Assembly: GCA_963836175.1 (NCBI GenBank)
Contig: CAWIIS010000008.1
Location: 148,838 to 212,837, forward strand
Source: Nitrospirota bacterium
GTDB taxonomy: Bacteria; Nitrospirota; UBA9217
Reading direction: 5' to 3'
Length of the DNA: 64,000 nt
Under the pieces are notes generated by a model. It was given only the letters and a program-made list of their open reading frames with translations. It was not told the origin of the DNA and did no database searches. How positions within the stretch are numbered: the stretch's first letter is position 1; each line of letters opens with the position of its first letter. Below are positions 42,814 to 61,295 of this stretch, one piece after another. A program made the translations under genes and the position numbers.

Positions 42814-43952
42814 ATGCAGAAAAAATATCTCCTTGCCCCTGGACCGACACCAGTGCCGCCTGAGGCGCTTCTGGCCATGGCCATGCCGATCATCCATCAC
42901 CGGGCGCCTGACTTTCTGCCCGTGCTCGAATCAGCGAAAAAGGGCCTTCAGTGGCTCTATCAGACCAAGAACGACGTGCTGATCCTCTGCTCCACCGGCA
43001 CCGGCGGCATGGACGGCGCGGTGTCAAATTTCCTGAGCCCCGGCGACGACGTACTCGTGATGAACGGCGGTAAGTTCGGCGAACGCTGGACCAAGATCTG
43101 CCAGGCCTACGGCATGAAGGTGGAAGAGGTCATGGTGGAATGGGGATACGCGGTAAAGCCGGAGCAGGTCGAGGCGAGCGCTCAAGAAGAACCCGAAGAT
43201 CAAGGCCGTGTTCGTCCAGGCGAACGAGACCTCCACCGGCGTGTACCACGACATCAAGTCGATCGCCGCAGTCGTCAAGAAGACCGATGCGCTCTTTGTG
43301 GTCGATGCCATCTCGGCGCTGGTGGCCCATGACATCAAGACCGACGAGTGGGGTATTGACGTCATGATCGGCGGCTCCCAGAAGGGCGTGATGCTGCCCC
43401 CGGGGCTTGCCTTCGTATCCGTCAGCGACAAGGCCTGGAAGATGGCCGATACGGCGAAGACGCCGAAATTCTATTTCAACTTCAAGAAAGAGCGCGAGAA
43501 CCTGGCCAAGAACCAGACGCTCTTTACCTCTCCCGTGACGCTCATCATCGGCCTGAACGCCGCTATTAAAATGCTTCAGGACGAGGGTCTCGAGAACGTG
43601 TTCAAGCGCCACGAAAAGCTCGCCCAGGCGACTCGCGCAGGGGCCTTGGCGCTCGGGCCTCAAGCTCTTTCCCAAGGAAAGTCCGAGCAATGCGCTCACG
43701 GCCATCGAAGCGCCGGCTGGCGTGGACGGCCAGGCGATCTACAAGGACCTGCGCGTGAAGTACGGCATCACCGGCGCAGGCGGCCAGGACAAGCTCAAGG
43801 GCAAGATCTTCCGCATCGCGCACCTGGGCTATGCCGACACTTTTGACGTGATCACGGCGATCGCCGGCATCGAGATGGTGCTGAAGGGCCTGGGCCATCC
43901 GGTGAAGCTCGGCACGGGCGTGGGCGCGGCGCAGGAAATATTGATGAAGTAA
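42814..43952 (+). CDS. Class V aminotransferase (serine-glyoxylate / phosphoserine aminotransferase type), 2-3 frame breaks
   Basis: LLAPGPTPVP start and GGSQKGVMLPPGLAF (PLP lysine). Lies upstream of serA. Pieces are in ORFs 42814.., 43208.., 43722... Confidence 0.75.
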
Positions 43953-44039
43953 CCACCCCCTTTGCCCCCAAGTCCGTAAATTAGGAGGTGGGTAGGACGG
44001 GTTACCTGTCTTTCGTGGATTCTATTTTTGGAGGGTTCC

Positions 44040-45620
44040 ATGAAGGTTCTGATCAGCGACAACCTCTCCCCTATCGGGGTGGAGATATTAAAGAAGGCCG
44101 GGCTCGAAGTCGATGCCCGGAGCAAGACCTCGGTCGAGGAGATCGAGAAGATCATCGGCGATTACGACGCGCTGGTCATCCGTTCCGCCACCAAGGTGAA
44201 CGGCAGCGCTGCTTGAGAAGGCCGCGAAGCTCAAGGTCGTGGGCCGCGCGGGAAGCGGCCTCGACAACGTGGACATCCCGGCCGCCACCAAGAAGGGCGT
44301 GGTCGTGATGAACACGCCCGGCGGCAACACGGTCACCACGGCGGAGCACACCATCGGCATGATCTTCGCCTGCGCCCGCATGATCCCCCAGGCGTACTCT
44401 TCGCTCAAGGCAGGCAAGTGGGAGAAGAAGAAGTTCGAGGGCATCGAGCTCTACGCCAAGACCCTGGGCATCATCGGCATGGGCGCCATCGGCGGCGTGG
44501 TCGCGAACCGCGCCATCGGGCTCGGCATGAAGGTCCTGGCCTACGATCCGTTCATCTCGACCGGAGAAGGCGAAATCCCTCGGCATCGAACTGGCCGATC
44601 TGCCCACGATCTACAAACGGTCGGATTTCATCACGGTCCATACGCCGAAGACCAAGGAAACGGCGAACCTGATCAACAAGGACACCATCAGCCAGATGAA
44701 GGACGGCGTGCGCATCATCAACTGCGCCCGCGGCGGCATCGTGAACGAGACGGACCTCTATGAAGCGATGAAGAGCGGCAAGGTCGGCGGGGCCGCCTTT
44801 GACGTGTTCGAGAAGGAGCCGCCGGAGAACCATCCGCTGCTCACCCTCGACAACTTCATCGCAACGCCGCACCTGGGCGCGTCCACCCTGGAGGCACAGG
44901 AGAACGTGGCCGTGGCAGTGGCCGAGCAGATCGTGGATTACCTCATTGCCGGGACCGTCCGGAACGCCGTCAACGTGCCGTCCGTGCCCGCGGACCAGCT
45001 GCCCGACGCTCAGCCCCTACATCAACCTTGCGGAGCGCATGGGCCTGTTCCAGGCGCAGCTCTGCGAAGGCGGCCTCACCCAGGTAACGGTCGAGTACAG
45101 CGGCGAGGTGGCGAACCTCAAACAGGAGCCGATCACGCTGGCGGCGCTCAAGGGCCTGCTGACGCCGATCCTGAACGAGAACGTGAACTATGTGAACGCG
45201 CCGCTCATTGCCAAGGACCGCGGCATCGAGATCAAGGTTTCCAAATCAGTGGACACCACCGAATATACGAGCCTCATCACGATCAAGGTCAAGGCAGGCG
45301 GCAAGGACCTGTCCGTTGCCGGCACGCTGAACAGCAAGAAAGAGCCCCGCATCATCCAGGTGGACAACTTCCCCATGGAGACCGTGCCCGAGGGCGACAT
45401 GCTCGTGCTCATGAACAACGACAAGCCCGGCGTCATCGGCGGCATCGGCACGATCCTGGGACAGAACGGGATCAACATCGCCCGCATGCAGTTCGGCCGC
45501 GAGAAGCAGGGCGGTCTGGCCATGTCGGTCGTGAGCATCGACGGCACCGTGGCCGATGAGCTCATGGCAAAGATCAGGCAGATGCCGAACGTGCTGTCGG
45601 TGAAGCAGGTCAAGATATAG
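44040..45620 (+). CDS. serA: D-3-phosphoglycerate dehydrogenase with C-terminal ACT domain, about 4 frame breaks
   Basis: [24 protein letters not shown]..., [13 protein letters not shown] motif, [18 protein letters not shown], and an ACT-like tail ending in ...[10 protein letters not shown]. Confidence 0.85.
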
Positions 45621-45660
45621 ACGCGGAATGAGTGCAGCGATGTTTGCTGAAGGAGTCACC

Positions 45661-46968
45661 ATGCCAGTATTAGTCGTAGTCGGGTGCCCAGTGGGGCGAT
45701 GAAGGCAAAGGGAAGATCATTGACCTGCTCACGGAGCGGGCGGACGTGGTCGCGCGGTACCAGGGCGGCCATAATGCCGGCCATACCGTGGTGGTGGGCA
45801 AGAACGAGTTCATCCTGCACCTGGTCCCCTCGGGGATCCTGCATAAAGGCAAGAAGTGCATCATCGGGAACGGCGTGGTCGTGGACCCTGCGGCGCTCCT
45901 CGAAGAGATGGATGCCATGGCCAAGCGGGGCATCAAATTCGACCACAGCCTGCTCATCAGCAGGAACGCCCACCTCATCATGCCGTACCACAAGGCCCTC
46001 GATGTGGCGAGCGAAGCGCTGAAGGGGAACAAGAAGATCGGCACGACCGGCCGGGGCATCGGTCCCGCTTATGCGGACAAGATCAACCGCAAGGGCATCC
46101 GGATGGCCGATCTCCTGGACGAAAAGACCTTTCGCGAAAAGCTGTCCGTGCAATACCAGCGAGGCGAACTTCATGCTCGAGCGTTTCTATAACGCGCCGC
46201 TGGTGAATCAGGACCAGGTCTATGACGAGTACCGGGGCTACGCCAGGAGGCTCAAAAAATACATCGCCGATACCACGCTGTTTCTGAGCGACGCCATCGC
46301 CGGGAAAAAGAAGATCCTGGCCGAAGGCGCCCAGGGAACGCATCTTGACGTGGACCACGGGACCTATCCCTATCGTGACCTCGTCGAGCCCCACGGCCGG
46401 CGGCGCCTGCACCGGCCTCGGCATCGGGCCGAACACGATCACCGAGGTCCTGGGCATCGTCAAGGCCTACACCACGCGCGTCGGCAGCGGCCCCTTTCCC
46501 ACGGAGCTGAATGATAAGACCGGCGAACTGCTGCGGCTGCGCGGCAAGGAGTACGGGGCGACAACGGGCAGGGCGCGGCGGTGCGGATGGGCCGATACGC
46601 TCGTTGTCCGGCATGCAGTGCGGGTGAACGGCATGACGAGCGCGGCCATCACCAAGCTGGACGTGCTCGATACGCTTGATGAACTCAAGATCTGCGTGGG
46701 CTATAAACACAAGGGGAAGCTGTACGAGGAAATGCCGTCGGAGCTTGCGGTGCTCGAGCAGGGCGTTCCGCAGTACATCACCATGCCCGGCTGGAAGCAG
46801 ACGACGGTCGGCATCAAAAAATACGAAGACCTGCCGAAAAAGGCCCGGTCCTACGTGGAAAAGCTTTGCAAACTCTGCGGCGTCAAGCCGTCCATCATAT
46901 CGACGGGCCCGCGACGAGACGAGACCATCATTCTCGAGCGGCCTTTCCAGACGGCTAAAAAGCGGTAA
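45661..46968 (+). CDS. purA: Adenylosuccinate synthetase, about 4 frame breaks
   Basis: MPVLVVVG then (extra G in GTCGGGT) [62 protein letters not shown]. Confidence 0.85.
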
Positions 46969-47084: not shown

Positions 47085-47160
47085 GGGCCGGTAGCTCAGT
47101 TGGTAGAGCACCGCCCTTTTAAGGCGGGTGTCCTGGGTTCGAGTCCCAGCCGGCTCACCA
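47085..47160 (+). tRNA. tRNA-Lys (anticodon UUU), CCA encoded
   Basis: Cloverleaf folded by hand: acceptor GGGCCGG/CCGGCUC, anticodon stem CCGCC/GGCGG, loop CUUUUAA, T-arm CUGGG-UUCGAGU-CCCAG. Confidence 0.9.
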
Positions 47161-47164
47161 GTTT

Positions 47165-47255
47165 TTTAATTGCGGATTGCAGATTGCGGATTTCGGATTA
47201 TAGAGAAAAGGCAGTATTATAAATCCGCAATCCGAAATCCACAATCCGAAATACA
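47165..47255. repeat. Imperfect hairpin made of GCGGATT-type heptamers between the two tRNAs
   Basis: Arms are ATTGCGGATTGCAGATTGCGGATTTCGGATT and AATCCGCAATCCGAAATCCACAATCCGAAAT, around an AT-rich loop. Confidence 0.6.
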
Positions 47256-47257
47256 AT

Positions 47258-47335
47258 GTCCCCATCGTCTAGTCCGGCCCAGGACACCGCCCTTTCACGG
47301 CGATAACGCGGGTTCGAATCCCGCTGGGGACGCCA
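47258..47335 (+). tRNA. tRNA-Glu (anticodon UUC), CCA encoded
   Basis: GTCCCCATCGTCTAGTCCGGCCCAGGACACCGCCCTTTCACGGCG...GGTTCGAATCCCGCTGGGGACGCCA. Close to the canonical bacterial tRNA-Glu. Confidence 0.9.
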
Positions 47336-47619
47336 TTTAAACTTTAAGAATCAGCGCACTTAACTGCATGATTCTTATTTTTTTTACACAAATGGTACAC
47401 AGAATCGGGATGCAGCGCATTTCGATTTTCATGCTCTCCCTCCGTTTTCCCACGCCAAATGAAGAAAGCGCTCAGTTTGGTTTCGGTTCGAACTGAAGAA
47501 TAAGCACCTTTCTACTTTTTTTTCACCGAGTCCATTTTGTGAACCGATTTACGAGAAGCATGGTGGTAATCTTCTATCGACTTTTTCCATCCTGAGTCTC
47601 TATTTATCATCGTTTTAGA

Positions 47620-47676
47620 AATGAAGAGCACCGTAATCGAGAGGATCTTCGGTTCCACGATCTGAGACATGATTGA
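47620..47676 (+). pseudogene. Possible tyrosine-recombinase (integrase) remnant
   Basis: Short frame reading ...NREDLRFHDLRHD-stop, with an HxLRH box typical of integrases. Low-GC DNA immediately 3' of tRNA-Glu. The evidence is only this short motif. Confidence 0.3.
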
Positions 47677-47703
47677 AGGCGAGTTACTCCCGGTTCTTTG
47701 TCC

Positions 47704-47719
47704 CTACCCGAACGGGTAG
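47704..47719. promoter_or_regulatory. Perfect 16-bp palindrome CTACCCGAACGGGTAG (candidate transcription-factor site)
   Basis: About 90 bp upstream of the -35 of the receptor/peptide operon. The same motif occurs x3 at 61205..61256. Confidence 0.45.
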
Positions 47720-47809
47720 TATCCATTTCTGCCTTAATTCCGTATAATCTCTATGAACCTGATCCCTTGATATGCTGCACACATCGCCAATGAATAGAGA
47801 ATAAATTTG

Positions 47810-47838
47810 TTGACAATAAAATACCCTGCTCATATACT
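47810..47838 (+). promoter_or_regulatory. Sigma-70-type promoter of the receptor/peptide/rSAM operon
   Basis: TTGACA (47810-15), 17 nt, TATACT (47833-38). Confidence 0.5.
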
Positions 47839-47964
47839 TTTTTATTTTTAGACACGTGATCGTTTAATAAAATTGCACATAAAGCAGGTGATCATGATGA
47901 CTTCACGTTTTTCACATCAGCGCCGTGTCGTTACCACAGGCGCATCGGCCGCGGGAGCATAGAA

Positions 47965-49839
47965 ATGATGCTCCTTATCCGTTTGTCCTGCATCTTCTTT
48001 ATTTTTGTCAACTTGATGGTTCTGTTCCGCTCCTCCGCCTCCGCCCAGTCGACCGAAGAGAAAAACTTTCTCCTGATGTATTTCAAGGAAGAGGAACTGG
48101 TTGTCGAAGCGCCGACGCGGGCCAGAAAATCCCTGGCCCAGACCGCGGAGAACGTATCGGTGGTCACGGCCGACGAGATCAGGCTCATGAACGCCCATAC
48201 TGCCGCCGAGGTGCTGAACACGGTGACGGGCGTGCAGGTCTTCCTGACGGGCGGGCCCGGCAGCAGCGCGACAGCGTTCATCCAGGGTTCGGGGAGCCGG
48301 CACGTTGCGGTGTTCATTGACGGCGTTCCGCTGAACAACCTCTCGGACAACGCGTCAGAGATCGGGTCGCTCCCGGTCCAGAACATCGAGAAGATTGAGA
48401 TCATCAAGGGGCCGGCATCGTCCGCCTGGGGATCGGCCCTGGGCGGCGTGATCAACATCATCACCAAGGCGGGGCAGCACGAAGGGACCGGCGGGTTACT
48501 TTCGGCCTCCTCAGGAAAGCGCGATACGGTTGACTTCCGGGCCGAGGCATCGGGAAAACAAGCACGTGTCGGCTACTATTTCACCGCAGGCAGGCTGCAG
48601 ACCGACGGCTTCCGGCCGCATAACGATTTTTCGGGAAACAATGGTTACGCGAAGCTGAGCTACGATATCACGAGCCATACGTCTGTGCTTGCAACGGTGA
48701 GCTATGACAAGAGTGAAAGAGCTATCGGGGAGTTGCCGGCGTTTGGCATATATGTGGGTTATGACCTGAAAACAATAAGGTCTTCGCTCGAAGTGAAATC
48801 GGCTCTGACTGAGAAGGCAGATGTTCAGCTGACTCTCTGGCACCTCCGTCAGCATAGCGACTTCAGTAATACATTAATTGCAACGGATACGGAGCTTTCG
48901 GCGGACCACTATCTAGATGACGGGTATGGCGGGAGCCTCAAACTGACATGGAAAGGGCAACTTCACAGCATTGTCCTCGGCGGTGACTTTGATTCCAGGA
49001 CTCTGGACTCGAACGCGATCGCGGGAAACAGACAGGGGATAGAAAAACAGGCAGCCTTTATCAACGACACGATGTCTTTCGGTCGCCTGACTGTCACGCC
49101 GGGTCTACGGTATGATAAAACGGACACGAACGGCGATTTCGCGAGCCCGGGCCTTGGCATGACCTACCGGATCGGGGAGACCACACTCCTCCGTGCTACT
49201 GCAGCCCGGGGGTTCAGTGTACCGGCCCTTGCGGGCACCTATGGCGACAATCTCTTTCATGTCTCCAATCCCGATCTAAAAATGGAAAAGGTCAAGTCCT
49301 ACCAGATAGGCGCTGAAACCGCTGTTGAGAAGTATCTTTGGGTCAAAGTGTCGGGCTTCAGGCACGATCTTGACGATGTACTCGAGAACGTGGCGCTCTC
49401 TCCCGCGTCGTTCATCACCTTGAACACCGGCAGGGAGAGACGGGAAGGGCTTGAGGTCGAGCTAAGAACAGCTTCGGTTTATCATACAACGCTCAATGCC
49501 GGGGCGTCGTTCATCAGCGCCAAGGACAGGGACACGGGTGAGACGATCAAGAGCGTCGCACAAAGAACCTATGACATTGGCCTGCAGTACGATGGTGACT
49601 CGTTCAAGGCCTTAGTGAAGGGACATTATATCTACTGGAACACGGACAAGTTCTTCGAAGGGAAATACGATGCTTTTATTGTCGATGCCCATGTCATGAA
49701 GGCCTTGTATACGCGAAACGATCACTCCCTTGAGGCCTTTGCCGATGTTCATAATATCTTCAATGACGAGCAATATCCAGCTGCTATATATAAAAATCCC
49801 GGCAGATGGTTCGAGGCCGGGGTCAGATACGTCTTTTAA
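47965..49839 (+). CDS. TonB-dependent outer-membrane receptor
   Basis: Signal peptide. Plug block LVVEAPTRARKSLAQTAENVSVVTADEIRLMNAHTAAEVLNTVTGVQV. Beta-barrel body. C-terminal ...FEAGVRYVF. Confidence 0.85.
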   Translation: MMLLIRLSCIFFIFVNLMVLFRSSASAQSTEEKNFLLMYFKEEELVVEAPTRARKSLAQTAENVSVVTADEIRLMNAHTAAEVLNTVTGVQVFLTGGPGSSATAFIQGSGSRHVAVFIDGVPLNNLSDNASEIGSLPVQNIEKIEIIKGPASSAWGSALGGVINIITKAGQHEGTGGLLSASSGKRDTVDFRAEASGKQARVGYYFTAGRLQTDGFRPHNDFSGNNGYAKLSYDITSHTSVLATVSYDKSERAIGELPAFGIYVGYDLKTIRSSLEVKSALTEKADVQLTLWHLRQHSDFSNTLIATDTELSADHYLDDGYGGSLKLTWKGQLHSIVLGGDFDSRTLDSNAIAGNRQGIEKQAAFINDTMSFGRLTVTPGLRYDKTDTNGDFASPGLGMTYRIGETTLLRATAARGFSVPALAGTYGDNLFHVSNPDLKMEKVKSYQIGAETAVEKYLWVKVSGFRHDLDDVLENVALSPASFITLNTGRERREGLEVELRTASVYHTTLNAGASFISAKDRDTGETIKSVAQRTYDIGLQYDGDSFKALVKGHYIYWNTDKFFEGKYDAFIVDAHVMKALYTRNDHSLEAFADVHNIFNDEQYPAAIYKNPGRWFEAGVRYVF

Positions 49840-49882
49840 TACATGATTCAAAGTAGTCAACTACTCTAGGGGGGAGGATAGC

Positions 49883-49984
49883 ATGAAAAACAGGATCGTT
49901 GTGCTGAAGAAGGGCGTTGAGAAAAAGCAGGTCGTTGAAGGGCTTTGCTGTATGGGAGCACTTATCCCGTACCTATGGATGTAG
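49883..49984 (+). CDS. Unannotated 33-codon ORF: candidate RiPP precursor MKNRIVVLKKGVEKKQVVEGLCCMGALIPYLWM
   Basis: GGGGGGAGG RBS 6-8 nt upstream of the ATG. Basic leader-like N-half and hydrophobic Cys/aromatic C-half. Located 79 nt upstream of a radical SAM/SPASM gene. Too short for the ORF track. Confidence 0.6.
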   Translation: MKNRIVVLKKGVEKKQVVEGLCCMGALIPYLWM

Positions 49985-49995
49985 GTTGTGCTATT

Positions 49996-50030
49996 GAGGG
50001 AGAGCGCTCCGCTCTCCCTCTTTTTTATTT
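49996..50030 (+). terminator. Intrinsic terminator/attenuator hairpin directly after the peptide ORF
   Basis: GAGGGAGAGCG-CTC-CGCTCTCCCTC (11-bp perfect stem) followed by TTTTTTATTT. Confidence 0.7.
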
Positions 50031-50062
50031 CTCATGAAGAAAGGCATCATTGCTGGCTGCTG

Positions 50063-51352
50063 ATGAAATTATCCCGTTATTCCAAAACCTATCCATCCGC
50101 GGACGACCCGGAGTCGGTCATTCTGTTCTCCACCAAGCGCGCCTCGGCGGTGCTTGTCCCGAAGGCCCTCCTCGCGGACATCGAGGCGGGCAGGCTTTCC
50201 ACAGAGGAGCAGGCCGAACTTGCTAAGCTGGGCTTCCTGATATCGGGCGACAAGGAGGAACGGCAGGAGCTGTTGTCCTATATCCAGGACATGAACGCCC
50301 TGGACCGGTCCATGAAGTTCATCGTCGTCGTGAACATGGACTGCAACCTCGCCTGCCGCTACTGCTTCGAAGGCGTCAGGAAAGGGAAACACTATCTTTC
50401 TGACGAGGTCGCAGCGAGGTTCGTCGATTTCGTCAAGACCCGTGACTACGCGGACAAGGACGATATCAAGATCACCTTCTACGGCGGAGAGCCGCTCCTG
50501 TCGGTGGACCGGATCGCCTCCATCTCCGAACAGATCAAGACCTTTTCCGAGGGCAGGGGGCTGCGGTACGTCTTCTCCCTCGTGACCAACGGAGTGTTGC
50601 TGACTCCCGGGGCAGTGAAACGGCTTCAGCCCCTCGGATTGAGAAGCGCCAAGGTGACGCTCGACGGACCGAAGGAGGTCCATGACGCCTTCCGGCCCTT
50701 CAGGAACGGCACAGGGTCTTTCGATACGATCCTCCGGAACGTGGAAGTCGTATCCGGCCTGATCAAGGTCCAGGTCGGCGGCAACTTCACGCAGGACAAC
50801 TACCGCCAATTTCCCCGCCTGCTGGACTTCCTGGTTGAGCGGGGGCTCGGCCCGGAGCGGATCGCGGCGGTCAAATTCGATCCTGTGGTGAACGAGAGCC
50901 GCGAGTTCGCCCTCCCGGACTTCCGGGACGGCTGCGACTCCATGGACGAGCCTTGGATTGCCGGGGCCTCATTGTTGCTGCGCGAGGAAGTGCTGAAGCG
51001 CGGCTACAATACGCCGAAGATCATGCCCTCGCCCTGCCTGATGGAGCATGACGACAGCTTCGTGGTGAACTACGATGGGATCCTGTACAAATGCCCCGGC
51101 CTGATCGGGCGGCAGGGCTGCGGTGCAGGCGATCTGGTGAGCGGACCGGTAAAATACCTCGCGTCCCACGGGCTCGACGACTGGAAGAACGACGATTGCC
51201 TGGCTTGTGCCTATCTGCCGCTTTGCTTCGGGGGCTGCAAATACCTCAAGCTCGTCCGGGAGAACAGCATGGGCGGTGTAAATTGCCAAAAAAAATATTT
51301 CGACCGGGTCCTCGCCACACTGGTGGCCCAAGACATCCGGTACGGGCTGTAG
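50063..51352 (+). CDS. Radical SAM / SPASM-domain peptide maturase with N-terminal RRE (PqqD-like) region
   Basis: CNLACRYC (CxxxCxxC). C-terminal auxiliary-cluster cysteines YKCPG...CLACAYLPLCFGGCKY...NCQ. The ~90-aa N-terminal extension (ILFSTKRASAVLVPKALLADIEAGRLSTEEQAELAKLGFLI) resembles a precursor-recognition element. ATG 50063 lies downstream of the hairpin. Confidence 0.8.
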   Translation: MKLSRYSKTYPSADDPESVILFSTKRASAVLVPKALLADIEAGRLSTEEQAELAKLGFLISGDKEERQELLSYIQDMNALDRSMKFIVVVNMDCNLACRYCFEGVRKGKHYLSDEVAARFVDFVKTRDYADKDDIKITFYGGEPLLSVDRIASISEQIKTFSEGRGLRYVFSLVTNGVLLTPGAVKRLQPLGLRSAKVTLDGPKEVHDAFRPFRNGTGSFDTILRNVEVVSGLIKVQVGGNFTQDNYRQFPRLLDFLVERGLGPERIAAVKFDPVVNESREFALPDFRDGCDSMDEPWIAGASLLLREEVLKRGYNTPKIMPSPCLMEHDDSFVVNYDGILYKCPGLIGRQGCGAGDLVSGPVKYLASHGLDDWKNDDCLACAYLPLCFGGCKYLKLVRENSMGGVNCQKKYFDRVLATLVAQDIRYGL

Positions 51353-51365
51353 TCCCGGTCACTTC

Positions 51366-52286
51366 ATGATTAACCGCTTCTCTTTCATAGTAAAACCCGA
51401 CAAGGCCCTCCCCGTCCTACTGGTTGCGCTCGCGGTCCTTGTGTGCCCTCTTCCCGCGACTTCGTCCGCGTGCGAGACGACCGTCGTCGTGAGCGCTGAC
51501 CTGAAGCCCTATCGGGAGGTCCTCCAGGGTATCCGCGATGCCTCCGTCTGCACCGTGCGGGAAGTGACACTGCGCGATGGCGACGCCCTGGAACGGGTCC
51601 GCCGGACATCGCCCAATGTCGTGGTCGCGATAGGGACCGAGGCTTTCCGGACGGTCCGGCCGCTCCTGGACGCGCCGGTCATCCATGTCATGGTGATCCC
51701 CTCCGAGGTCGAGCGCTTCCCGTCGGCAAACTTGTCGGGAGTGAGCATGAGCATCGCTCCCGAGGCATGGCTGTCGGCGATCAAGCGCGTGTTCCCCGGC
51801 GCGAAGCGGATCGGGCTGCTCTTCGATTCCCGGAATACGGGCCCCTTCGTCTCCGAGGCGGTGCGCGCCGCTCCGGCTGCCGGGTTGACGCTGATAACGG
51901 CGGAGCTCGATGGAGCCGATGAGGTTCCGAAGGCGCTGAACTCTCTCCGCGACTCGGTTGACGTGCTCTGGATGCTGCCGGATCCAGCGGTGGCATCGGC
52001 GCCGGTCCTCGAGTACCTGGTCCGCTTCTCCATCCAGCATCGCATTCCCATCATGACCTTTTCAGAAAAATACCTGGAACTTGGCGCCGTGGCGTCGCTG
52101 GACGTGGACCCCTATGACATGGGCGTCCAGGCCGCGGAAATGGCGGCGCGGCTCGCGAGGGGCGGGGACGGTCCCGTGCGCGTCTACGCGCGGAAAACAA
52201 AGCTCTCGCTCAACCGGAGCGCGGCGGGGAAGATGGGGGTCGTGATCGGCGCGGCGGTTTCTGAGAGGGGCCTTGACGATGAATAG
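51366..52286 (+). CDS. Periplasmic ABC-type substrate-binding-like protein (ABC_sub_bind family type)
   Basis: Signal peptide. Periplasmic-binding fold pattern (NVVVAIGTEA..., GVSMSI..., AKRIGLLFDSRNTG..., VDVLWMLPD..., IPIMTFSEKYLELGAVASL). Overlaps the kinase start. Confidence 0.6.
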   Translation: MINRFSFIVKPDKALPVLLVALAVLVCPLPATSSACETTVVVSADLKPYREVLQGIRDASVCTVREVTLRDGDALERVRRTSPNVVVAIGTEAFRTVRPLLDAPVIHVMVIPSEVERFPSANLSGVSMSIAPEAWLSAIKRVFPGAKRIGLLFDSRNTGPFVSEAVRAAPAAGLTLITAELDGADEVPKALNSLRDSVDVLWMLPDPAVASAPVLEYLVRFSIQHRIPIMTFSEKYLELGAVASLDVDPYDMGVQAAEMAARLARGGDGPVRVYARKTKLSLNRSAAGKMGVVIGAAVSERGLDDE

Positions 52287-54192
52287 CCCCTTCAGAATGA
52301 TCCTCAAGGAGCGATTCGGACTCAAGGTCATTACGGCGTTCATTATCGTCATCGCTGCGTCCTTCATCCTCTATACGGTCGTCTGGGCGGTCTATGAGAT
52401 CGGCAGGCTCAGGCACAAGCTCGAGGACCAGGGTATTATGCTGACGTCTCTCCTCGCGCGGGGGGCAGTGGTGGGCATCTTCACGGAGAACGAAGCGGAG
52501 CTCAAGCGGTCGGCGGCGGATGTCCTGAAGCTGCCCGACGTGGTGTCCGTATCGCTGTTCAATGCGGAAGGACGAATGCTCTACAGAGGCAGCAGAATGG
52601 TCGGACGGCCCGATCCCGGGACGTTGCCGGAGCGAAATGCACCGGATCCGCCGGCTGGCACGGAGTTGGAGATCGCGGACCAGGCGGACGCGGTCAGGAT
52701 CTCCCGGCCGGTCTTCAGCGCGTCCCTAGCCGATACGGACGAAACGCTGTATTTCAGCTCGTCGACTGGTCTCGCGCGGGAGCGGGTGATAGGTCATGTC
52801 CTGATCGTGATGAGCAAGGACAGCTACCGCAGCGAGATCATCGCGCTCGCGGGAAGGAATTTGGGATTGATGGCGCTGTTCATCGCGGTAAGCGGCATTG
52901 TCGTGTGGGGCGCCGTCCGCAAGGTCACGCGTCCGCTCGAGCGCCTGACCGAGAGCGTAAGGGACTTCGAACGGGGAGTGCCGGTGGAGCCGGCGCCGGT
53001 CGAGACCAGCGACGAAATCGGAAGGCTGGCATCGGCATTCAACGACATGGTCGCTGCGCGGCGGAAAACGGAGCTGTCCCTGCGCGAGAGCGAGGAGCGC
53101 TACCGGCGGCTTGTCGAACTCTCCCCGGACGCGATCTACGTGCAGCTTGAGGGAAGGATCGTCTTCATCAATAACGCGGGCGCGAGACTGCTGGGAGCGT
53201 CCGCTCCCGCGGACATCCTGGACCGGAAGGTCCTGGACCGCATTCACGAGGAAGACCACGAGACCGTCGTGAAGCGGGCACTACAGGTCGAGGAAGGGGG
53301 GCTCGTTGTCACCTTCCTCCCAGTCAGGTATCTCCAGCCCGACGGGACGGTCGTGGATGCCGAAGTGGCCGCCGCGCCCTTCCCGTTCCAGGGCAAGAGC
53401 GCCGTGCTCGTCATGGCCCGCGATATCACGGAGCGCAAAAGCCTGGAAGAGCTGGTCAGAGCATACCAGCGGGAACTGCATTCCGTGGAAAACGCAATGT
53501 CCTCGCTGGAATCGCAGATCGAGGAACGGGAGCGGCATCTTATTGCAGCGGACCTGCATGATCATGTCGGCCAGAACCTGGTGGCGTCGCTGTTCAAATT
53601 GGGGCTCCTGCAAAAGGGGATTTCCGCGCCCGACGCGCTCAGGCACCTGGAGGAGATCCGCGATCTTATCGGCCAGACCATCCAGTATACGAGGTCGTTG
53701 ACTGTCGAGCTCAGCCCGCCGGTCCTGTCGGCGATCGGTTTCAAAGCCGCTGTGGAGTCCCTAGCGGAGGGAATCGAAGCGGCTTACGGAATAACGGTCG
53801 CCGTCGAGGATGACGGCGGGTCCGATCTGATCGGCGAAAACGTCCGGAACCCGCTCTTCCGGTGCGTGCGCGAGCTGCTCATGAACGCCGTCAAACATTC
53901 CCGGGCGAGCGGCGTCGCGGTCTCCCTGGGAAGGGACAACGACCGGATAAAAATTACCGTTGTTGATAACGGGATGGGGTTCGATGCATCGGCGATAACC
54001 GGGAAAAAGTCGGGGTTCGGGCTGTTCTCTGTCAGGGAGCGGATAAAGAGGCTGGGCGGCTCGTGCAGGATCGAAAGCCGGCCGGGGTCCGGAACAAAGG
54101 TTGTCCTGGAGGCGCCCCTGCATGACGACGTACAGGATAAAAATCTCGGCGCACCGGAACAGGACGACAGGATAACAGAATCGACAGGATAA
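52279..54192 (+). CDS. Sensor histidine kinase (TM-HAMP-PAS-HisKA_3-HATPase)
   Basis: HAMP (EIGRLASAFNDMV), PAS (YRRLVELSPDAIYV), H-box AADLHDHVGQNL (HisKA_3), N and G boxes (MNAVKHS, DNGMGF, GFGLFSVRERI). Confidence 0.85.
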   Translation: MNSPFRMILKERFGLKVITAFIIVIAASFILYTVVWAVYEIGRLRHKLEDQGIMLTSLLARGAVVGIFTENEAELKRSAADVLKLPDVVSVSLFNAEGRMLYRGSRMVGRPDPGTLPERNAPDPPAGTELEIADQADAVRISRPVFSASLADTDETLYFSSSTGLARERVIGHVLIVMSKDSYRSEIIALAGRNLGLMALFIAVSGIVVWGAVRKVTRPLERLTESVRDFERGVPVEPAPVETSDEIGRLASAFNDMVAARRKTELSLRESEERYRRLVELSPDAIYVQLEGRIVFINNAGARLLGASAPADILDRKVLDRIHEEDHETVVKRALQVEEGGLVVTFLPVRYLQPDGTVVDAEVAAAPFPFQGKSAVLVMARDITERKSLEELVRAYQRELHSVENAMSSLESQIEERERHLIAADLHDHVGQNLVASLFKLGLLQKGISAPDALRHLEEIRDLIGQTIQYTRSLTVELSPPVLSAIGFKAAVESLAEGIEAAYGITVAVEDDGGSDLIGENVRNPLFRCVRELLMNAVKHSRASGVAVSLGRDNDRIKITVVDNGMGFDASAITGKKSGFGLFSVRERIKRLGGSCRIESRPGSGTKVVLEAPLHDDVQDKNLGAPEQDDRITESTG

Positions 54193-54268
54193 ATTCGTAT
54201 CCGCTTTTTTTCCGGCAGCCCTGTTAAAAAACTCTTTGGTTTCGGTTTGTAACTGAAAAGGGGGTGGC

Positions 54269-55102
54269 ATGAGCATACGGATACTTCTTGCTGATGATCA
54301 TAAACTGCTGCGCGAGGGGTTGCGCTCGTTGATATCCGAACAGTCGGACATGTCGGTGGTAGCGGAAGCCGAGGACGGCAGGTCCGCTGTTCAACTGGCA
54401 GCCAGACTATCGCCGGATATTGTGATCATGGACATTTCGATGCCGGGGATGAACGGTATCGAAGCTACGCGACTGATCCTGGCGGAAAATCCCGCCGTGC
54501 AGATCATGGCACTATCAATGCATCTGGACCGGCGCATGGTGCTGGAAATGTTCAAAGCCGGCGCATCCGGCTATCTCCTGAAGGAATGCGCCTTTGACGA
54601 GGTGGTCCATGCCGTGCAGCTCGTTGCGTCGAAAATCATCTATCTCAGTCCGAGGGTAGCAGACGTTCTTCTCAAGGACTATATTCACGGCGTCCGGAAG
54701 GGAGAACTGGCACCGTTATCCGAAGTGCCGAAGCAGCAGCGGGCAGTTCTTCACCTGCTGGAGGATGGCAAAGATATGAAAGACATCGTTTCCTCCCTTC
54801 ATATAAGCATCAAGAATGCCGAGTCCTGCCGCAGGCAGATGATCCTTGATCGCATCCTGCCGTATCTTCTCCGCGCACAGAGTGAAACTGCGGCTGGATT
54901 TGCCGTCTCACTGACGCCGCGGGAACGGGAAATCCTAGTCTGGGTCAAGGACGGCAAGAGCACCGGTGAGATCGCATCCATTCTCACAATAAGCCAGGAC
55001 ACGGTGAAATTTCATATGAAAAACGTATTCCAGAAGCTCAGCGCCACCAGCAGGTCGCAGGCCATCGCCATCGCGATCGAGAATAAGCTCATAGAGTCTT
55101 GA
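54269..55102 (+). CDS. NarL/LuxR-family response regulator with an extra degenerate HTH segment
   Basis: REC (ILLADDHKLLREG...DIVIMDISMPGMNG). Middle segment QQRAVLHLLEDGKDMKDIVSSLHISIKNAESCRRQM. Canonical GerE HTH LTPREREILVWVKDGKSTGEIASILTISQDTVKFHMKNVFQKL. Confidence 0.85.
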   Translation: MSIRILLADDHKLLREGLRSLISEQSDMSVVAEAEDGRSAVQLAARLSPDIVIMDISMPGMNGIEATRLILAENPAVQIMALSMHLDRRMVLEMFKAGASGYLLKECAFDEVVHAVQLVASKIIYLSPRVADVLLKDYIHGVRKGELAPLSEVPKQQRAVLHLLEDGKDMKDIVSSLHISIKNAESCRRQMILDRILPYLLRAQSETAAGFAVSLTPREREILVWVKDGKSTGEIASILTISQDTVKFHMKNVFQKLSATSRSQAIAIAIENKLIES

Positions 55103-55132
55103 TCGCGCAGGATCGCGCAGTGACAGAACGCA

Positions 55133-56394
55133 TTACCTGTCCAGTACGGTCCTGACCTTTTGCAATAAATCCTTCGGCGACACGGGCTTCAGCAGGAATT
55201 CAGTCCCATTGTCGGCGACGCCATTGTCCTCAATGAGTGCCCTTGCGTAACCGCTGATAAAGATCGTCTTGGTGTTCGGGTTTATCGACCTGATCTCTTC
55301 GCACGCCTGCTTGCCGCTCTTTTTCGGCAGGATAACATCGAGCAGAACCAGCTTTATCCGCTCCCGGTTGTCTTTAAACGCGCTCACCGCGTCCTCGCCG
55401 TCGACCGCCTCTATCACCGAATAACCGAATTCGTTAAGTAGTTGCCTGGTGAAGCCCCTGACCGCCGCATCATCCTCCGCAATAAGTATGGCCTCCTCAC
55501 CGCGCGCCGGAGACGTCTTTTCCTTTTCTTCTCGCTGCGCGGCCCCCGCAGCTGCAACAGGCAGGTAGATCTTGAACATCGTCCCCTTCCCCGGTTCGCT
55601 TTGACATTCCAGAAAGCCTCTATGCTGCTTGACGATGCCGAACGCTATCGAGAGACCCAGTCCGGTGCCTTTTCCCAGCTCCTTGGTGGTAAAGTAGGGC
55701 TCAAAGATTCTTTGCCTCGTCTTCTCGTCCATGCCTGTGCCCGTGTCAGTAATAATGATCGTGGTGTACCCGCCCGGTTGGCCGAAGCCGTTCGCAGCGA
55801 TGAAGCGGCTGTCCATGGTCATGCATTCCGTCTCTATCGTCAGCGTCCCTCCCTGCGGCATGGCGCCCGTGCGTTCGCGGCAAGGTTCATCAGCACCTGT
55901 TCGATCTGCCAGGCATCGGCCAGAACGAGCAGCTCGCCCTGGGCGGCGATGACCCTGAATTCGATGTCCTCGCCGATGATCGGTTCGAGCGTCTTTTTGA
56001 AGTTCGCAACGATGCTGTTGACTTCCACGGTCCTCAGGTCCAGCATCCGTTTCCTGCTGAAAGCAAGAAGCCCACGGATAAGCCGGGTCGCCCGTTCGCC
56101 CGCAGAGAGTATTTCCCCTAAGTACGGCAGGGTGGGATCGTCAGGCTTCAGCTTCATTCGCATGAGAGTTCCATACCCCACAATGACGCTCAGGATATTG
56201 TTGAAATCATGCGCAATACCTCCGGCGAGCGTGCCTATTGCCTCCATCTTCTGGGCATGCTGCAGCTGCTCTTCGAGTATCTTTACTTTTCTGATAAGCG
56301 CCTCGTTCATTTGCAGGACCGTCGACGTTTTTTCCGATTCGGCCATTGCTTTCAAAACGCCGTTTCTATGCTCTCGCTCATCTGAAACCATCAC
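55133..56394 (-). CDS. Hybrid sensor histidine kinase (HisKA-HATPase-REC), one frame break near 55850
   Basis: GIAHDFNNIL H-box (ORF 55840..56394). DTGTGMD, GTGLGLS and the REC domain ILIAEDDAAVR...LLDVILP are in ORF 55133..55861. Confidence 0.8.
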
Positions 56395-56778
56395 GGCACC
56401 TCACATTCCGATAAATAAATACCTGCATGCAGGATGCGCACAGGGTTCGCGTTATTCCAAAAACCGGTCATGCGTTTAAGTGTCGCTGTTGAAGCTGTTC
56501 CCGGAAACATTTTTTCCAAAATACTTATTTGAGCCATGATTGCCGAACTGAAAGAGGATCCTGGACGTTCAGAGGGGATTTTCCTGTCCGTGCAGATGAG
56601 TGAGCAGGCACTGCCCGGCATTTAACAGCTTACTGCATAAGTCTTACGCGAAATAGGTTGACTCGTTAACAGCCTGTTCATGCTCTTGCCCCCGTACCTG
56701 TTCTTTCCCTGATCAAAACCCTTCCGTTCGCCCGCCGTCCGGTACGGATCACGGCCGGCACGCCGAGTCTCTAAAACA

Positions 56779-60010: not shown

Positions 60011-61099
60011 TCATGCAACCCGGCCGCCCACCCTGCTCCAACTGGCCTCCAGAAGGCGCTCCCGCACCATGCGCAGGTAGTCCGCCCGGAATTTCCGCAG
60101 CTGATAATCGCGGTAATTGCTCTCCCTGAGATCGGCCCATGCCCGCAGCTTGTTCGCTTCGTTCCGTTTCCTGGCAGCGGCGATCATCTCCGGCGTTATG
60201 ACCGCCGGGCGCGTAGTGAGCTTTTCGTATCCATAGTAGTCCATAAATTCGCCTGCCAGGGTCTCGATGACGGCGATCTCATCGAGGGACAGTGTCTGCT
60301 TGAACTTGTCGATGTTCGCCGGGATGGGAGCTTTGGCATTGGATTCCCACAGGGAGGACATGACGGAGATCTTCCGGGCCTCTTGGGAGCGGGAGACGTC
60401 GAGCATGGCGGGAAAATATTCGATGCCGAAGAACGAGCAGATCTTCCTGAGCACGGCCTCCTGGCTGGACACGAAGTCCTCGTAGCGGATGGTCAGGACC
60501 CTTTTAGGATACCTGTCCGCAAGCTTTTTGCCCGCTTCGTAGGCATTCACCCAGATCATGGCGTTCAGGAGCGTGTCGAAATCGTGAATGATGGCCTTAT
60601 TCATACTGCTGACCTGGGCGCGCGGATCGCGCACCACGTTCAGGAACAGGAGATCGTCGAAGAGCGACATCAGCTCGTCCGCGTTCTGTACGCTGTCCAG
60701 CGATTTATCCATGACGACGCGGGCCCCCCTCTTCGCGCCTGCCTGGAACAGCAGCTCTGCGACCACCCGGTGCACGCTCCGCGGTTCGTCCTTGACGGCG
60801 TCCAAGATCTCTTCCGGATCGAAGACCACGTCGGGCCATTTCACCATGCTCACGGTCTGCAGGCCGATGACGTCGACGATCATCTGAAAATAGGCCCGGT
60901 CGTCGCGCAGGTCGCCGTAAAGCTCCACGAGGGGCATGAAGTCGACGATATGCAGGGGGTAGGGCGCATAGAACTCGGGATTGAAGTTCAGCCTGAGCCG
61001 AAGCGCGTGGCTGCCGCATCGCCGGAGCGGGATCATCAGCACCGGTCTCGGTCTGTTGCGTGATATGACTTCGCCCTGTTGCACGGTATGGTTCGCCAT
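60011..61099 (-). CDS. Sulfotransferase-family protein (PAPS-dependent type)
   Basis: 5'-PSB-like IPLRRCGSHAL, 3'-PB-like VVRDPRAQVSSM, and IRYEDFVSSQEAVLRKICSFFGIEY. AGGAG RBS upstream of the ATG at 61099. Confidence 0.7.
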   Translation of the reverse strand: MANHTVQQGEVISRNRPRPVLMIPLRRCGSHALRLRLNFNPEFYAPYPLHIVDFMPLVELYGDLRDDRAYFQMIVDVIGLQTVSMVKWPDVVFDPEEILDAVKDEPRSVHRVVAELLFQAGAKRGARVVMDKSLDSVQNADELMSLFDDLLFLNVVRDPRAQVSSMNKAIIHDFDTLLNAMIWVNAYEAGKKLADRYPKRVLTIRYEDFVSSQEAVLRKICSFFGIEYFPAMLDVSRSQEARKISVMSSLWESNAKAPIPANIDKFKQTLSLDEIAVIETLAGEFMDYYGYEKLTTRPAVITPEMIAAARKRNEANKLRAWADLRESNYRDYQLRKFRADYLRMVRERLLEASWSRVGGRVA

Positions 61100-61256: not shown

Positions 61257-61295
61257 TTACGCACGGCGCAGGAATTGTGTACATTGGTGCTAATC

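What the first reader, a model, noticed from the sequence alone, without database searches (positions are those of the whole stretch)
47810..55102. Tightly packed operon: TonB-dependent receptor, hidden 33-aa peptide, RRE/radical-SAM/SPASM maturase, periplasmic binding protein, HisKA_3 kinase, LuxR regulator
Six co-directional genes have gaps of 43, 78, 13, -8 and 76 nt behind a single good sigma-70 promoter. A peptide precursor next to an rSAM/SPASM enzyme that carries an N-terminal precursor-recognition-like domain is the hallmark of a RiPP locus. Here there is no exporter or protease. Instead the pair is embedded between an outer-membrane uptake receptor and a periplasmic-binding-protein/two-component sensor set. 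That layout suggests a modified peptide that is sensed or re-imported, as a signal or a metallophore-like molecule, rather than a classical bacteriocin. I vaguely recall a Geobacter 'geopeptide' plus rSAM maturase family in TIGRFAMs, but I cannot verify that this locus belongs to it. I do not know of a described receptor-peptide-rSAM-SBP-TCS architecture.
Basis: partly seen in the sequence, partly recalled or inferred. Interest (0 to 1): 0.8.

Follow-up and report, generated by a model that had tools for sequence, protein, structure and literature searches.

The report
Geopeptide RiPP cassette with uptake-sensor genes
A tiny 33-residue peptide gene, the radical-SAM enzyme that most likely cross-links it, an outer-membrane uptake receptor and a periplasmic sensor set form one cassette that is inherited together in anaerobic Nitrospirota and Geobacter relatives; databases name it ("geopeptide") but I found no experimental study, and it may be a self-made peptide that the cell takes back up and senses.

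Summary
Six intact co-directional genes lie at 47965-55102 with exactly the stated gaps, behind an 11-of-12 sigma-70-like promoter.

- **Maturase.** The radical-SAM enzyme scores 561 bits against NCBIfam TIGR04280, "geopeptide radical SAM maturase" (cutoff 400). It has the CX3CX2C motif, a full SPASM cysteine set and a predicted RRE-like N-terminal domain.
- **Peptide.** The 33-aa ORF is a true gene: strong Shine-Dalgarno, dN/dS 0.04-0.09, and a homologue in all 20 other loci examined. A profile of it finds 244 peptide clusters. Their core is C-C-x-G-[AP]-x-x-P-[FY]-R-x, with 8-10 residues after CC. The curated peptide model TIGR04229 misses it, because this Nitrospirota subtype has a basic leader instead of an acidic one.
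- **Cassette.** Receptor, peptide and maturase are adjacent in every locus. The PF04392 binding protein and an sCache_4 kinase are adjacent wherever the contig reaches. No exporter or protease is conserved.
- **New detail.** A terminator-like hairpin follows the peptide gene in 18 of 20 loci.

Best reading: a cross-linked peptide, probably a thioether, re-enters the periplasm through the receptor and is sensed. Signal versus metallophore is unresolved. This is a new member of a named but uncharacterised family.

The parts
47810..47838 (+). sigma-70-like promoter TTGACA-17-TATACT
   Evidence: 11 of 12 consensus matches. Both hexamers and the spacing are kept in the closest relative L001. Not recognisable in more distant loci.
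47965..49839 (+). TonB-dependent outer-membrane receptor (624 aa): signal peptide, TonB-box-like EELVVEA, plug and barrel
   Evidence: PF07715 Plug 4.5e-23 and PF00593 barrel 4.1e-36. Best NCBIfam match is the BtuB type, 154 bits, far below its cutoff of 600. An orthologue lies directly upstream of the peptide gene in all 20 other loci.
49869..49878 (+). strong Shine-Dalgarno GGGGGGAGGA for the peptide gene
   Evidence: Read from the sequence. Comparable purine-rich sites precede the short ORF in the other loci.
49883..49984 (+). geopeptide-type precursor MKNRIVVLKKGVEKKQVVEGLCCMGALIPYLWM: basic leader with the IVVL-x-x-G motif, core CCMGALIPYLWM
   Evidence: dN/dS 0.04-0.09 at dS about 1. Homologous short ORF in every locus. 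A profile finds about 100 clusters at 90% identity and 244 representatives at E <= 0.001. Only the second Cys is invariant. No hit to TIGR04229.
49996..50030 (+). terminator-like hairpin (11-bp stem, 8 G-C pairs, 3-nt loop) plus T-run between the precursor and maturase genes
   Evidence: An equivalent hairpin lies 0-25 nt after the peptide stop in the other loci, with different stem sequences in different clades. It ranks in the top 5% of all 45-nt windows of its own locus in 18 of 20 loci, median 0.8%.
50063..51352 (+). geopeptide radical-SAM/SPASM maturase (429 aa): RRE-like domain aa 1-80, CX3CX2C at C94/C98/C101, SPASM cysteines C325, C344, C379, C382, C388, C392, C408
   Evidence: TIGR04280 at 1.3e-168, 561.5 bits, cutoff 400, model positions 1-427 of 428. 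The cysteines are invariant in 37 homologues. AlphaFold model pLDDT 84.9; the N-terminus is three strands then three helices with pLDDT 88-95. Best fold match is the sactipeptide synthase CteB over the full length, E 1.6e-17, also best by sequence. The start at 50063 (MKLSRY) is conserved in orthologues.
51366..52286 (+). periplasmic PF04392 (ABC_sub_bind) binding protein with signal peptide, no partner permease or ATPase
   Evidence: PF04392 5.3e-27. Distant match to the tryptophan-binding TrpX model, 75 bits against a cutoff of 390. Closest solved structures are 3lkv and 3lft. Orthologues sit next to the cassette in 16 loci. Homologues of the Geobacter copy down to 44% identity all lie in such loci, 3 of 3 sampled.
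52279..54192 (+). membrane sensor histidine kinase: periplasmic sCache_4, HAMP, PAS, HisKA_3, HATPase_c. Its start overlaps the binding-protein gene by 8 nt
   Evidence: The sCache_4-HAMP sensor part is kept in all clades, while the transmitter differs: HisKA_3 here, a HisKA hybrid kinase with receiver in Geobacteraceae. The two genes overlap by 8 nt or lie up to 11 nt apart in all loci.
54269..55102 (+). NarL/LuxR-type response regulator (receiver plus GerE helix-turn-helix), 277 aa
   Evidence: PF00072 1.3e-29 and PF00196 8.5e-26. Orthologues follow the kinase in Nitrospirota loci.

Best explanation
This is a geopeptide-family RiPP cassette.

1. The 33-aa precursor is translated at a high level (strong Shine-Dalgarno).
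2. Its leader motif RIVVLKKG docks as a beta-strand on the RRE-like N-terminal domain of the radical-SAM/SPASM enzyme.
3. The enzyme modifies the 12-residue core CCMGALIPYLWM. The most likely chemistry is one or two Cys-to-carbon thioether cross-links that use the invariant second Cys.
4. The hairpin after the peptide gene keeps precursor and receptor mRNA above maturase mRNA.
5. The leader is removed and the product leaves the cell by functions not encoded in the cassette.
6. The product is carried back across the outer membrane by the dedicated TonB-dependent receptor.
7. In the periplasm it is bound by the PF04392 protein. That protein has no permease and is translationally coupled to the kinase.
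8. The loaded binding protein activates the sCache_4 kinase. The kinase phosphorylates the LuxR-type regulator, which changes transcription, probably including that of the cassette itself.

How firm each step is:
- Shown by sequence and comparison: the identity of all parts, the coding status of the peptide, and the inheritance of the parts together.
- Inferred: the leader-RRE docking, which is supported by charge covariation.
- Also inferred: the chemistry, export, re-uptake, the sensing route and autoregulation.

My estimates: peptide is the maturase substrate, about 0.9. Receptor, binding protein and kinase act on the product, about 0.75. Thioether chemistry, about 0.5. Whole scheme, about 0.45.
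For: - Maturase membership: TIGR04280 at 561 bits against a cutoff of 400, full length.
- Motifs: CX3CX2C and SPASM cysteines are invariant.
- RRE-like beta3-alpha3 N-terminus, and a full-length fold match to the thioether-forming CteB.
- The next-best family models are Cys-peptide, ranthipeptide or sactipeptide maturases: TIGR04463, CefB, PapB, SCIFF.
- The peptide is conserved and under purifying selection. It has one invariant Cys and a fixed 8-10-residue tail.
- Leader net charge anticorrelates with the net charge of the maturase's first 85 residues: Spearman -0.71, p 0.0014, n 17. The sign also flips within Geobacteraceae (L084 against L007, L008, L010, L011).
- Receptor, peptide and maturase are adjacent in 20 of 20 other loci. 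The binding protein and sCache_4 kinase are adjacent whenever the contig allows, in two gene orders and with two transmitter types.
- This binding-protein subfamily was found only in such loci.
- Identities of all five proteins fall in parallel across loci.
- The hairpin is conserved.
- Flanking genes differ between loci and include transposases, so the cassette is self-contained.
Against: - No exporter, leader peptidase or inner-membrane importer is conserved in any locus, so the extracellular loop needs unlinked functions.
- No chemistry was measured. The enzyme could instead make a C-C cross-link, epimerise, or oxidise Cys.
- No regulator binding site was found upstream.
- A locus with almost the same core as the window (L087, CCMGALIPYRW) has a receptor only 40% identical. 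Receptor divergence therefore follows phylogeny, not core sequence.
- The charge correlation is not corrected for phylogeny.
- The binding protein's nearest curated-model match is the tryptophan-binding TrpX, not a peptide binder.
Confidence: 0.45

Rival explanations
1. Metallophore reading. The modified Cys-containing peptide is released, chelates a scarce thiophilic metal in sulfidic anoxic habitats, and the metal-peptide complex is taken up through the receptor. The binding protein and kinase sense the loaded complex in the periplasm and induce the receptor, much as PfeS/PfeR induce PfeA in response to enterobactin (from my own knowledge).
For: - A TonB-dependent receptor plus a periplasmic binding protein next to a RiPP precursor parallels methanobactin operons (MbnT, MbnE) (established knowledge; one search lists the methanobactin genome-mining paper).
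- A CC pair is present in all 244 peptides whose core was scored.
- All hosts are anaerobes from sediment or groundwater.
Against: - Only the second Cys is invariant. Cultured Geobacter copies have a single Cys: ICFGSYFIIR, ICIIIFGRTV.
- The nearest characterised enzymes consume the thiol to form thioethers.
- No inner-membrane permease or ATPase is present to bring a metal into the cytoplasm.
- The rest of the core is hydrophobic or aromatic, not made of ligand residues.
Confidence: 0.22
2. Antimicrobial reading. The product is a narrow-spectrum bacteriocin, and the receptor and sensor genes serve producer regulation or immunity.
For: Many radical-SAM/SPASM RiPPs are antimicrobial, and several microcins exploit TonB-dependent receptors (review PMC8183687, listed). 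The receptor-peptide-maturase half of the cassette is 5-20 times more diverged at synonymous sites than the kinase-regulator half relative to the closest relative.
Against: - No exporter or immunity gene is conserved.
- The core motif is conserved across two phyla and under strong purifying selection, unlike typical bacteriocin diversification.
- Encoding the uptake receptor for one's own toxin would be self-harming.
Confidence: 0.08
3. Export reading. The TonB-dependent receptor-like protein carries the peptide out across the outer membrane rather than in, as reported for Myxococcus Oar and PopC (from my own knowledge). The binding protein and kinase sense an unrelated periplasmic ligand.
For: No other outer-membrane exit route is encoded. 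The receptor and peptide genes share the transcript segment upstream of the hairpin.
Against: The inner-membrane step would still be missing. The dedicated binding protein and kinase co-inherit with the peptide, which argues that they see the product. The TonB-box-like motif and plug are those of ordinary importers.
Confidence: 0.1

Closest known systems
Geopeptide system of TIGRFAMs/NCBIfam (TIGR04280 maturase plus TIGR04229 peptide), defined by comparative genomics in Geobacter
   Same: The maturase scores well above the curated cutoff over its full length. A short Cys-containing precursor lies immediately upstream. The leader motif I-V-V-L-x-x-G is shared. The core is nearly identical to that of a JGI-annotated 'putative radical SAM-modified peptide' (P0315, CCMGALIPYRW).
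   Different: The leader is basic (KKGVEKK) rather than acidic (DEGIDVED), so TIGR04229 does not detect it. The binding protein, kinase and regulator are co-directional downstream and use HisKA_3/LuxR, instead of a divergent hybrid kinase. The host is Nitrospirota.
Sactipeptide and ranthipeptide synthases (CteB, PapB, SCIFF maturases)
   Same: RRE plus radical-SAM plus SPASM architecture. CteB is the best sequence and fold match. The substrate is a Cys-bearing peptide.
   Different: About 20% identity to CteB. The core is very short, with one or two Cys. The chemistry is untested. The context is a Gram-negative receptor and sensor set rather than an ABC/C39 exporter.
Methanobactin operons (MbnA precursor, MbnT receptor, MbnE binding protein)
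   Same: A RiPP precursor is encoded with a TonB-dependent receptor and a periplasmic binding protein for re-uptake of the secreted product.
   Different: No MbnB/MbnC-type enzymes and no exporter. A two-component system replaces the sigma/anti-sigma pair. No evidence of metal binding.
Binding-protein-dependent two-component sensing (LuxP-LuxQ, TorT-TorS) and siderophore-sensing PfeS/PfeR-PfeA (from my own knowledge)
   Same: An orphan periplasmic binding protein is coupled to a membrane kinase. The receptor gene is linked to a two-component system that would report the imported ligand.
   Different: The binding-protein family (PF04392) and the sensor domain (sCache_4) differ. Here the presumed ligand is encoded in the same cassette.
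Bacteroidota radical-SAM RiPP clusters with a TonB-dependent transporter (Bacteroides itf cluster; an uncharacterised Parabacteroides cluster)
   Same: Precursor, radical-SAM enzyme and TonB-dependent transporter, with a two-component system in one case.
   Different: Those clusters include a peptidase-ABC exporter and other tailoring enzymes, and they lack the PF04392 protein. The enzyme families are unrelated.

Membership tests
Geopeptide system (TIGR04280 / TIGR04229) | Maturase scores above the curated TIGR04280 cutoff (400 bits) over its full length | tested here: met
   561.5 bits, E 1.3e-168, model positions 1-427 of 428. NCBI gives this name to 54-58% identical Nitrospirota proteins.
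Geopeptide system (TIGR04280 / TIGR04229) | Precursor scores above the curated TIGR04229 cutoff (30 bits) | tested here: not met
   No hit even at E 10. Of eight related peptides, only the L009 peptide gave 11 bits. Homology is shown instead by a profile built here: the peptide of the closest locus (L001, 31 of 33 residues identical to the window's) scores 71 bits, and the search finds 244 representatives.
Geopeptide system (TIGR04280 / TIGR04229) | Short precursor gene immediately upstream of the maturase | tested here: met
   78 nt upstream in the window. Present in all 20 other loci.
Radical-SAM/SPASM RiPP maturases | CX3CX2C radical-SAM cluster motif | tested here: met
   C94-x3-C98-x2-C101, invariant in 37 homologues.
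Radical-SAM/SPASM RiPP maturases | SPASM seven-cysteine motif for two auxiliary clusters | tested here: met
   C325-x13-G-x4-C344, then C379-x2-C382-x5-C388-x3-C392, then C408. All are invariant.
Radical-SAM/SPASM RiPP maturases | N-terminal RiPP recognition element (three strands plus three helices) | tested here: met
   Predicted only. Strands 7-11, 18-23, 28-33; helices 34-42, 47-55, 63-80; pLDDT 88-95. The alignment to CteB spans the whole protein. Leader and domain charges covary. Pfam PqqD was not detected.
Sactipeptide/ranthipeptide class | Cys sulfur to carbon thioether in the product | not testable with these tools
   Needs mass spectrometry and NMR of the modified peptide.
TonB-dependent transporters | Plug domain, 22-strand barrel, TonB box, signal peptide | tested here: met
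   Plug and barrel from Pfam. The signal peptide and the EELVVEA motif are read from the translation. No N-terminal signalling extension. The substrate is unknown: no substrate-specific model reaches its cutoff.
Binding-protein-dependent sensor kinases | Orphan periplasmic binding protein coupled to a kinase that has a periplasmic domain | tested here: met
   No permease or ATPase in any locus. The genes overlap by 8 nt or lie up to 11 nt apart. sCache_4 lies between two membrane helices. Physical interaction was not tested.
Anaerobic sulfatase maturases | Score above the TIGR03942 cutoff, and an adjacent sulfatase | tested here: not met
   65 bits against a cutoff of 349. No sulfatase in the window region or in related loci.
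PQQ system (PqqA/PqqE/PqqU) | PqqE-type enzyme and PqqU receptor above their cutoffs | tested here: not met
   PqqU model 68 bits against a cutoff of 1200. PqqE ranks only 50th in the fold search.
Methanobactin operons | MbnB/MbnC modification enzymes | tested here: not met
   No such genes in the cassette or among the conserved neighbours.

The most novel reading that the evidence does not exclude
The cassette is a peptide-based autoinduction (quorum-sensing-like) circuit of Gram-negative anaerobes. A radical-SAM cross-linked 10-12-residue peptide is released and pumped back into the periplasm by its own TonB-dependent receptor. It is handed by an orphan PF04392 binding protein to an sCache_4 kinase. 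This would be a signalling route with no described equivalent. The mosaic divergence of the receptor-peptide-maturase half would reflect exchange of signal types between lineages.
Probability: 0.3. Interest if true: 0.85.

Novelty: new member of a known kind. Interest (0 to 1): 0.55.

Why it matters
The family exists in annotation pipelines only as a name. Seven full-text searches here found no experimental work on it, and none of the three family names (geopeptide, TIGR04280, TIGR04229) appears in any paper.

This analysis shows four things:
- The family is much larger than its name suggests. The maturase search returned at least 120 clusters at 53% identity or more, and the peptide profile found 244 representative clusters.
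- It spans Nitrospirota and Desulfobacterota.
- Its unit is five components that stay together: receptor, peptide, maturase, binding protein and sensor kinase.
- The curated peptide model misses a whole basic-leader subtype.

If the product is re-imported and sensed, it would be a new kind of peptide signalling or metal scavenging in environmentally important anaerobes. These include iron and sulfate reducers. The cassette is also present in genetically tractable Geobacter sulfurreducens PCA and G. metallireducens GS-15, so the hypothesis is directly testable.

Tried and rejected
1. **Sulfatase maturase, PQQ and methanobactin memberships.** Rejected on curated scores and missing partner genes.
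2. **Riboswitch or other known RNA in the 120-nt leader before the receptor gene.** None found. Rfam at gathering thresholds gave only two tRNAs, and the permissive scan gave only a chance snoRNA hit at E 0.24.
3. **Receptor-core co-variation.** L087 has almost the window's core, but its receptor is only 40% identical, no closer than other distant loci. Uninformative.
4. **Is receptor + binding protein + sensor a general triad without a peptide?** Every homologue of the Geobacter binding protein that I sampled (63%, 47% and 44% identity) again lay in a geopeptide locus. The subfamily looks dedicated, but the general question stays open. Weak hits to the NCBIfam TOL_0244 receptor model and the 'kinase near YfiR-like' model hint at related triads.
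5. **Link to the sulfotransferase and PAPS-synthesis genes 5-9 kb downstream** (the core contains a Tyr). These genes accompany the cassette only in the close Nitrospirota relatives L001-L004, so this is probably local synteny.
6. **Exact-match look-ups of window proteins.** They returned nothing.
7. **Regulator binding motif upstream of the receptor genes.** None was visible by eye.
8. **Internal duplication in the regulator.** BLASTP found no similarity.
9. **Geobacter transcriptome papers.** Two mention radical-SAM genes, but not this locus.


Full report
**1. Observation**

The region holds six intact + strand ORFs:

| Gene | Coordinates |
|---|---|
| TonB-dependent receptor | 47965-49839 |
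| 33-aa peptide | 49883-49984 |
| radical-SAM maturase | 50063-51352 |
| PF04392 binding protein | 51366-52286 |
| sensor kinase | 52279-54192 |
| response regulator | 54269-55102 |

- The gaps are 43, 78, 13, -8 and 76 nt, as reported.
- A TTGACA-17-TATACT site lies at 47810-47838 and is kept in the closest relative.
- The maturase start at 50063 (MKLSRY...) is the conserved one. The longer GTG ORF from 49988 would run through a hairpin.

**2. The maturase**

- It matches NCBIfam TIGR04280, "geopeptide radical SAM maturase", at 561.5 bits (cutoff 400) over model positions 1-427 of 428.
- The next models are all Cys-peptide maturases: TIGR04463, CefB, Clo7bot, PapB, SCIFF. The anaerobic sulfatase maturase model scores 65 bits against a cutoff of 349.
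- C94/C98/C101 (CX3CX2C) and the SPASM cysteines C325, C344, C379, C382, C388, C392 and C408 are invariant in 37 homologues.
- An AlphaFold model (pLDDT 84.9, pTM 0.85) gives an N-terminal three-strand, three-helix domain at pLDDT 88-95. That is the topology of a RiPP recognition element.
- The best sequence and fold match in the PDB is the sactipeptide thioether synthase CteB, aligned over the whole length.

**3. The peptide**

- MKNRIVVLKKGVEKKQVVEGLCCMGALIPYLWM is preceded by GGGGGGAGGA.
- Against the two closest loci, dS is about 1 while dN is 0.04-0.10, giving omega 0.04 and 0.09.
- A short ORF with a strong ribosome-binding site lies between the receptor and maturase genes in all 20 other loci examined.
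- A profile of these peptides retrieves about 100 called peptides at 90% clustering. Nearly all are unnamed or "hypothetical".
- The same kind of profile retrieves 244 representatives at E <= 0.001 among 1.84 billion proteins.
- Across the family, the leader carries I-[IV]-V-L-[DK]-[EK]-G.
- The core is C-C-[RWAG]-G-[AP]-[FLY]-x-P-[FYL]-R-[GW], with 8-10 residues after CC in 236 of 244.
- Only the second Cys is invariant once the single-Cys Geobacter copies are included.
- 186 leaders are acidic and 50 basic. The window belongs to the basic minority. This explains why TIGR04229 (22 positions, cutoff 30 bits) does not detect it.
- One acidic-leader peptide, P0315, which JGI calls "putative radical SAM-modified peptide", has almost the window's core.

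**4. Leader-enzyme fit**

- Leader net charge and the net charge of the first 85 maturase residues are anticorrelated: Spearman -0.71, p 0.0014, n 17.
- The sign also flips within Geobacteraceae. L084 has leader +4 and domain -9; L007, L008, L010 and L011 have leader -3 or -4 and domain 0 or +1.
- This is not corrected for phylogeny, but it fits a leader-RRE contact.

**5. The cassette**

- A genome-collection scan found orthologues in Nitrospirota MAGs (53-88% identity), Geobacteraceae (42-49%) and a Desulfobacterales MAG (47%).
- The receptor gene is directly upstream in every case.
- The PF04392 protein and a kinase with an sCache_4-HAMP sensor are always adjacent when the contig extends far enough. 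This holds for 16 loci.
- In most Nitrospirota loci they are co-directional and downstream, with HisKA_3 and a LuxR regulator.
- In Geobacteraceae, Desulfobacterales and one Nitrospirae MAG they are divergent and upstream. There the kinase has a HisKA core in most loci, with a fused receiver in the two Geobacteraceae proteins scanned; the Desulfobacterales copy keeps HisKA_3.
- The sensor part is therefore kept while the transmitter is exchanged.
- Binding-protein and kinase genes overlap by 8 nt or lie at most 11 nt apart.
- Homologues of the Geobacter binding protein at 63%, 47% and 44% identity all lie in such loci, 3 of 3 sampled.
- Identities of all five proteins fall together across loci.
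- No exporter, peptidase or permease is conserved. None was found among the other ORFs of the window that I scanned.
- Flanks differ between loci and include transposases.

**6.

- An 11-bp hairpin with 8 G-C pairs, followed by a T-run (49996-50030), lies 11 nt after the peptide stop codon.
- An equivalent hairpin follows the peptide gene in the other loci. Stem sequences differ by clade: GGGAGAGC in Nitrospirota; GGGGGGA, AAGGGGGAAA or GGGAGGCC elsewhere.
- It ranks in the top 5% of all 45-nt windows of its locus in 18 of 20 loci, with a median of 0.8%.
- I read it as an attenuator that sets precursor and receptor mRNA above maturase mRNA. This is inference.

**7. Mechanism and rivals**

- The scheme in the best explanation follows from the anatomy.
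- Thioether chemistry is favoured by three things: the nearest enzymes, the single invariant Cys and the fixed tail length.
- Re-uptake and sensing are favoured by the dedicated receptor, the orphan binding protein and the coupled kinase.
- The missing exporter and peptidase are the main weakness.
- A metallophore role is weakened by the single-Cys variants and the absence of an inner-membrane importer.
- A bacteriocin role is weakened by the conserved core and the lack of immunity or export genes.

**8. Comparison with the closest relative**

- The cassette (47788-55114) is 90.1% identical to L001, while the downstream flank is 97.1% identical.
- Synonymous divergence against L001:

| Segment | dS |
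|---|---|
| receptor | 0.51-0.87 |
| peptide | 0.93 |
| maturase | 0.21-0.53 |
| binding protein | falls from 0.28 to 0.06 along the gene |
| kinase, regulator | 0.04-0.15 |
| CheW (flank) | 0.04 |

- The receptor-peptide-maturase half has therefore been exchanged by recombination with a more distant allele.

**9. Known or new**

- No paper in the searchable library contains "geopeptide", TIGR04280 or TIGR04229. None describes this architecture.
- Radical-SAM RiPP clusters with a TonB-dependent transporter are known in Bacteroidota, but with an ABC/C39 exporter.
- NCBI already names Nitrospirota homologues "geopeptide radical SAM maturase".
- The locus is thus a new member of a named but uncharacterised family, belonging to a basic-leader subtype.
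- The cassette also occurs in G. sulfurreducens PCA and KN400 and in G. metallireducens GS-15. This makes experiments practical.

Noticed in passing
window 42814-46968: Housekeeping genes upstream are split over reading frames. Adenylosuccinate synthetase is in three ORFs (45746-46192, 46071-46514, 46345-46968). A 2-hydroxyacid dehydrogenase is in two (44239-44763, 44696-45559). A class-V aminotransferase is in two (42814-43332, 43208-43846). This points to indel errors in a long-read assembly, or to pseudogenes. The six cassette genes are intact.
   Followed up: partly
window 47085-47960: tRNA-Lys(ttt) and tRNA-Glu(ttc) are followed by a low-GC spacer (44.6%). The spacer holds a short tyrosine-recombinase-like remnant...LRFHDLRHD*, at about 47650-47680. 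L001 carries about 3 kb of different sequence at this spot. This may be an old integration site.
   Followed up: partly
window 55115-56770: A 1.65-kb stretch absent from L001 holds fragments of a hybrid kinase on the - strand, split over two frames: HisKA at 55840-56394 and HATPase plus receiver at 55133-55861.
   Followed up: partly
window 47788-55114 versus L001: Mosaic divergence. Synonymous divergence is 0.5-0.9 in the receptor and peptide genes but 0.04-0.15 in the kinase, regulator and flank. The switch lies inside the binding-protein gene.
   Followed up: yes
window 47894-47962: A 22-codon upstream ORF (MMTSRFSHQRRVVTTGASAAGA) with an AGGTGA ribosome-binding site lies in the 5' leader and ends 2 nt before the receptor start. 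L001 has a similar ORF with a diverged C-terminal half. It is not seen in more distant loci.
   Followed up: partly
L005, L006, L012, L082, L083 (peptide genes): Some Nitrospirota precursors have very lysine-rich repeat leaders (KKKATKKKAAKKK...). The four whose charge was computed carry +18 to +23, and the fifth (L083) looks the same. All keep the CC core. This is unusual for RiPP leaders.
   Followed up: no
L083 9001-11229: One homologous maturase is fused to an N-terminal PRMT-like (arginine methyltransferase-type) domain. Its peptide core ends in NRYRH, so extra arginine methylation is conceivable.
   Followed up: no
window 54269-55102: The regulator is 277 aa, about 60 aa longer than the 215-217-aa orthologues in L004, L081 and L082. 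NarL-type models already align to residues 3-191, and a canonical GerE domain follows at 214-269. This suggests a degenerate first helix-turn-helix. BLASTP shows no internal repeat.
   Followed up: partly
window 60011-63900: A sulfotransferase (60011-61156, - strand) and a fused ATP-sulfurylase/APS-kinase (62080-63900, + strand) lie 5-9 kb downstream. They accompany the cassette only in the close relatives L001-L004.
   Followed up: yes
window 6359-11264 and 17447-20410: Large ORFs of 433, 726, 533 and 987 aa have no Pfam match at E <= 1e-5.
   Followed up: no
L081 5360-8769: In this Nitrospirota MAG the receptor gene of the cassette seems to be interrupted by a Transposase_mut insertion. A Plug fragment lies at 5360-5641, the transposase at 5804-7072, and the rest of the receptor at 7165-8769.
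   Followed up: no
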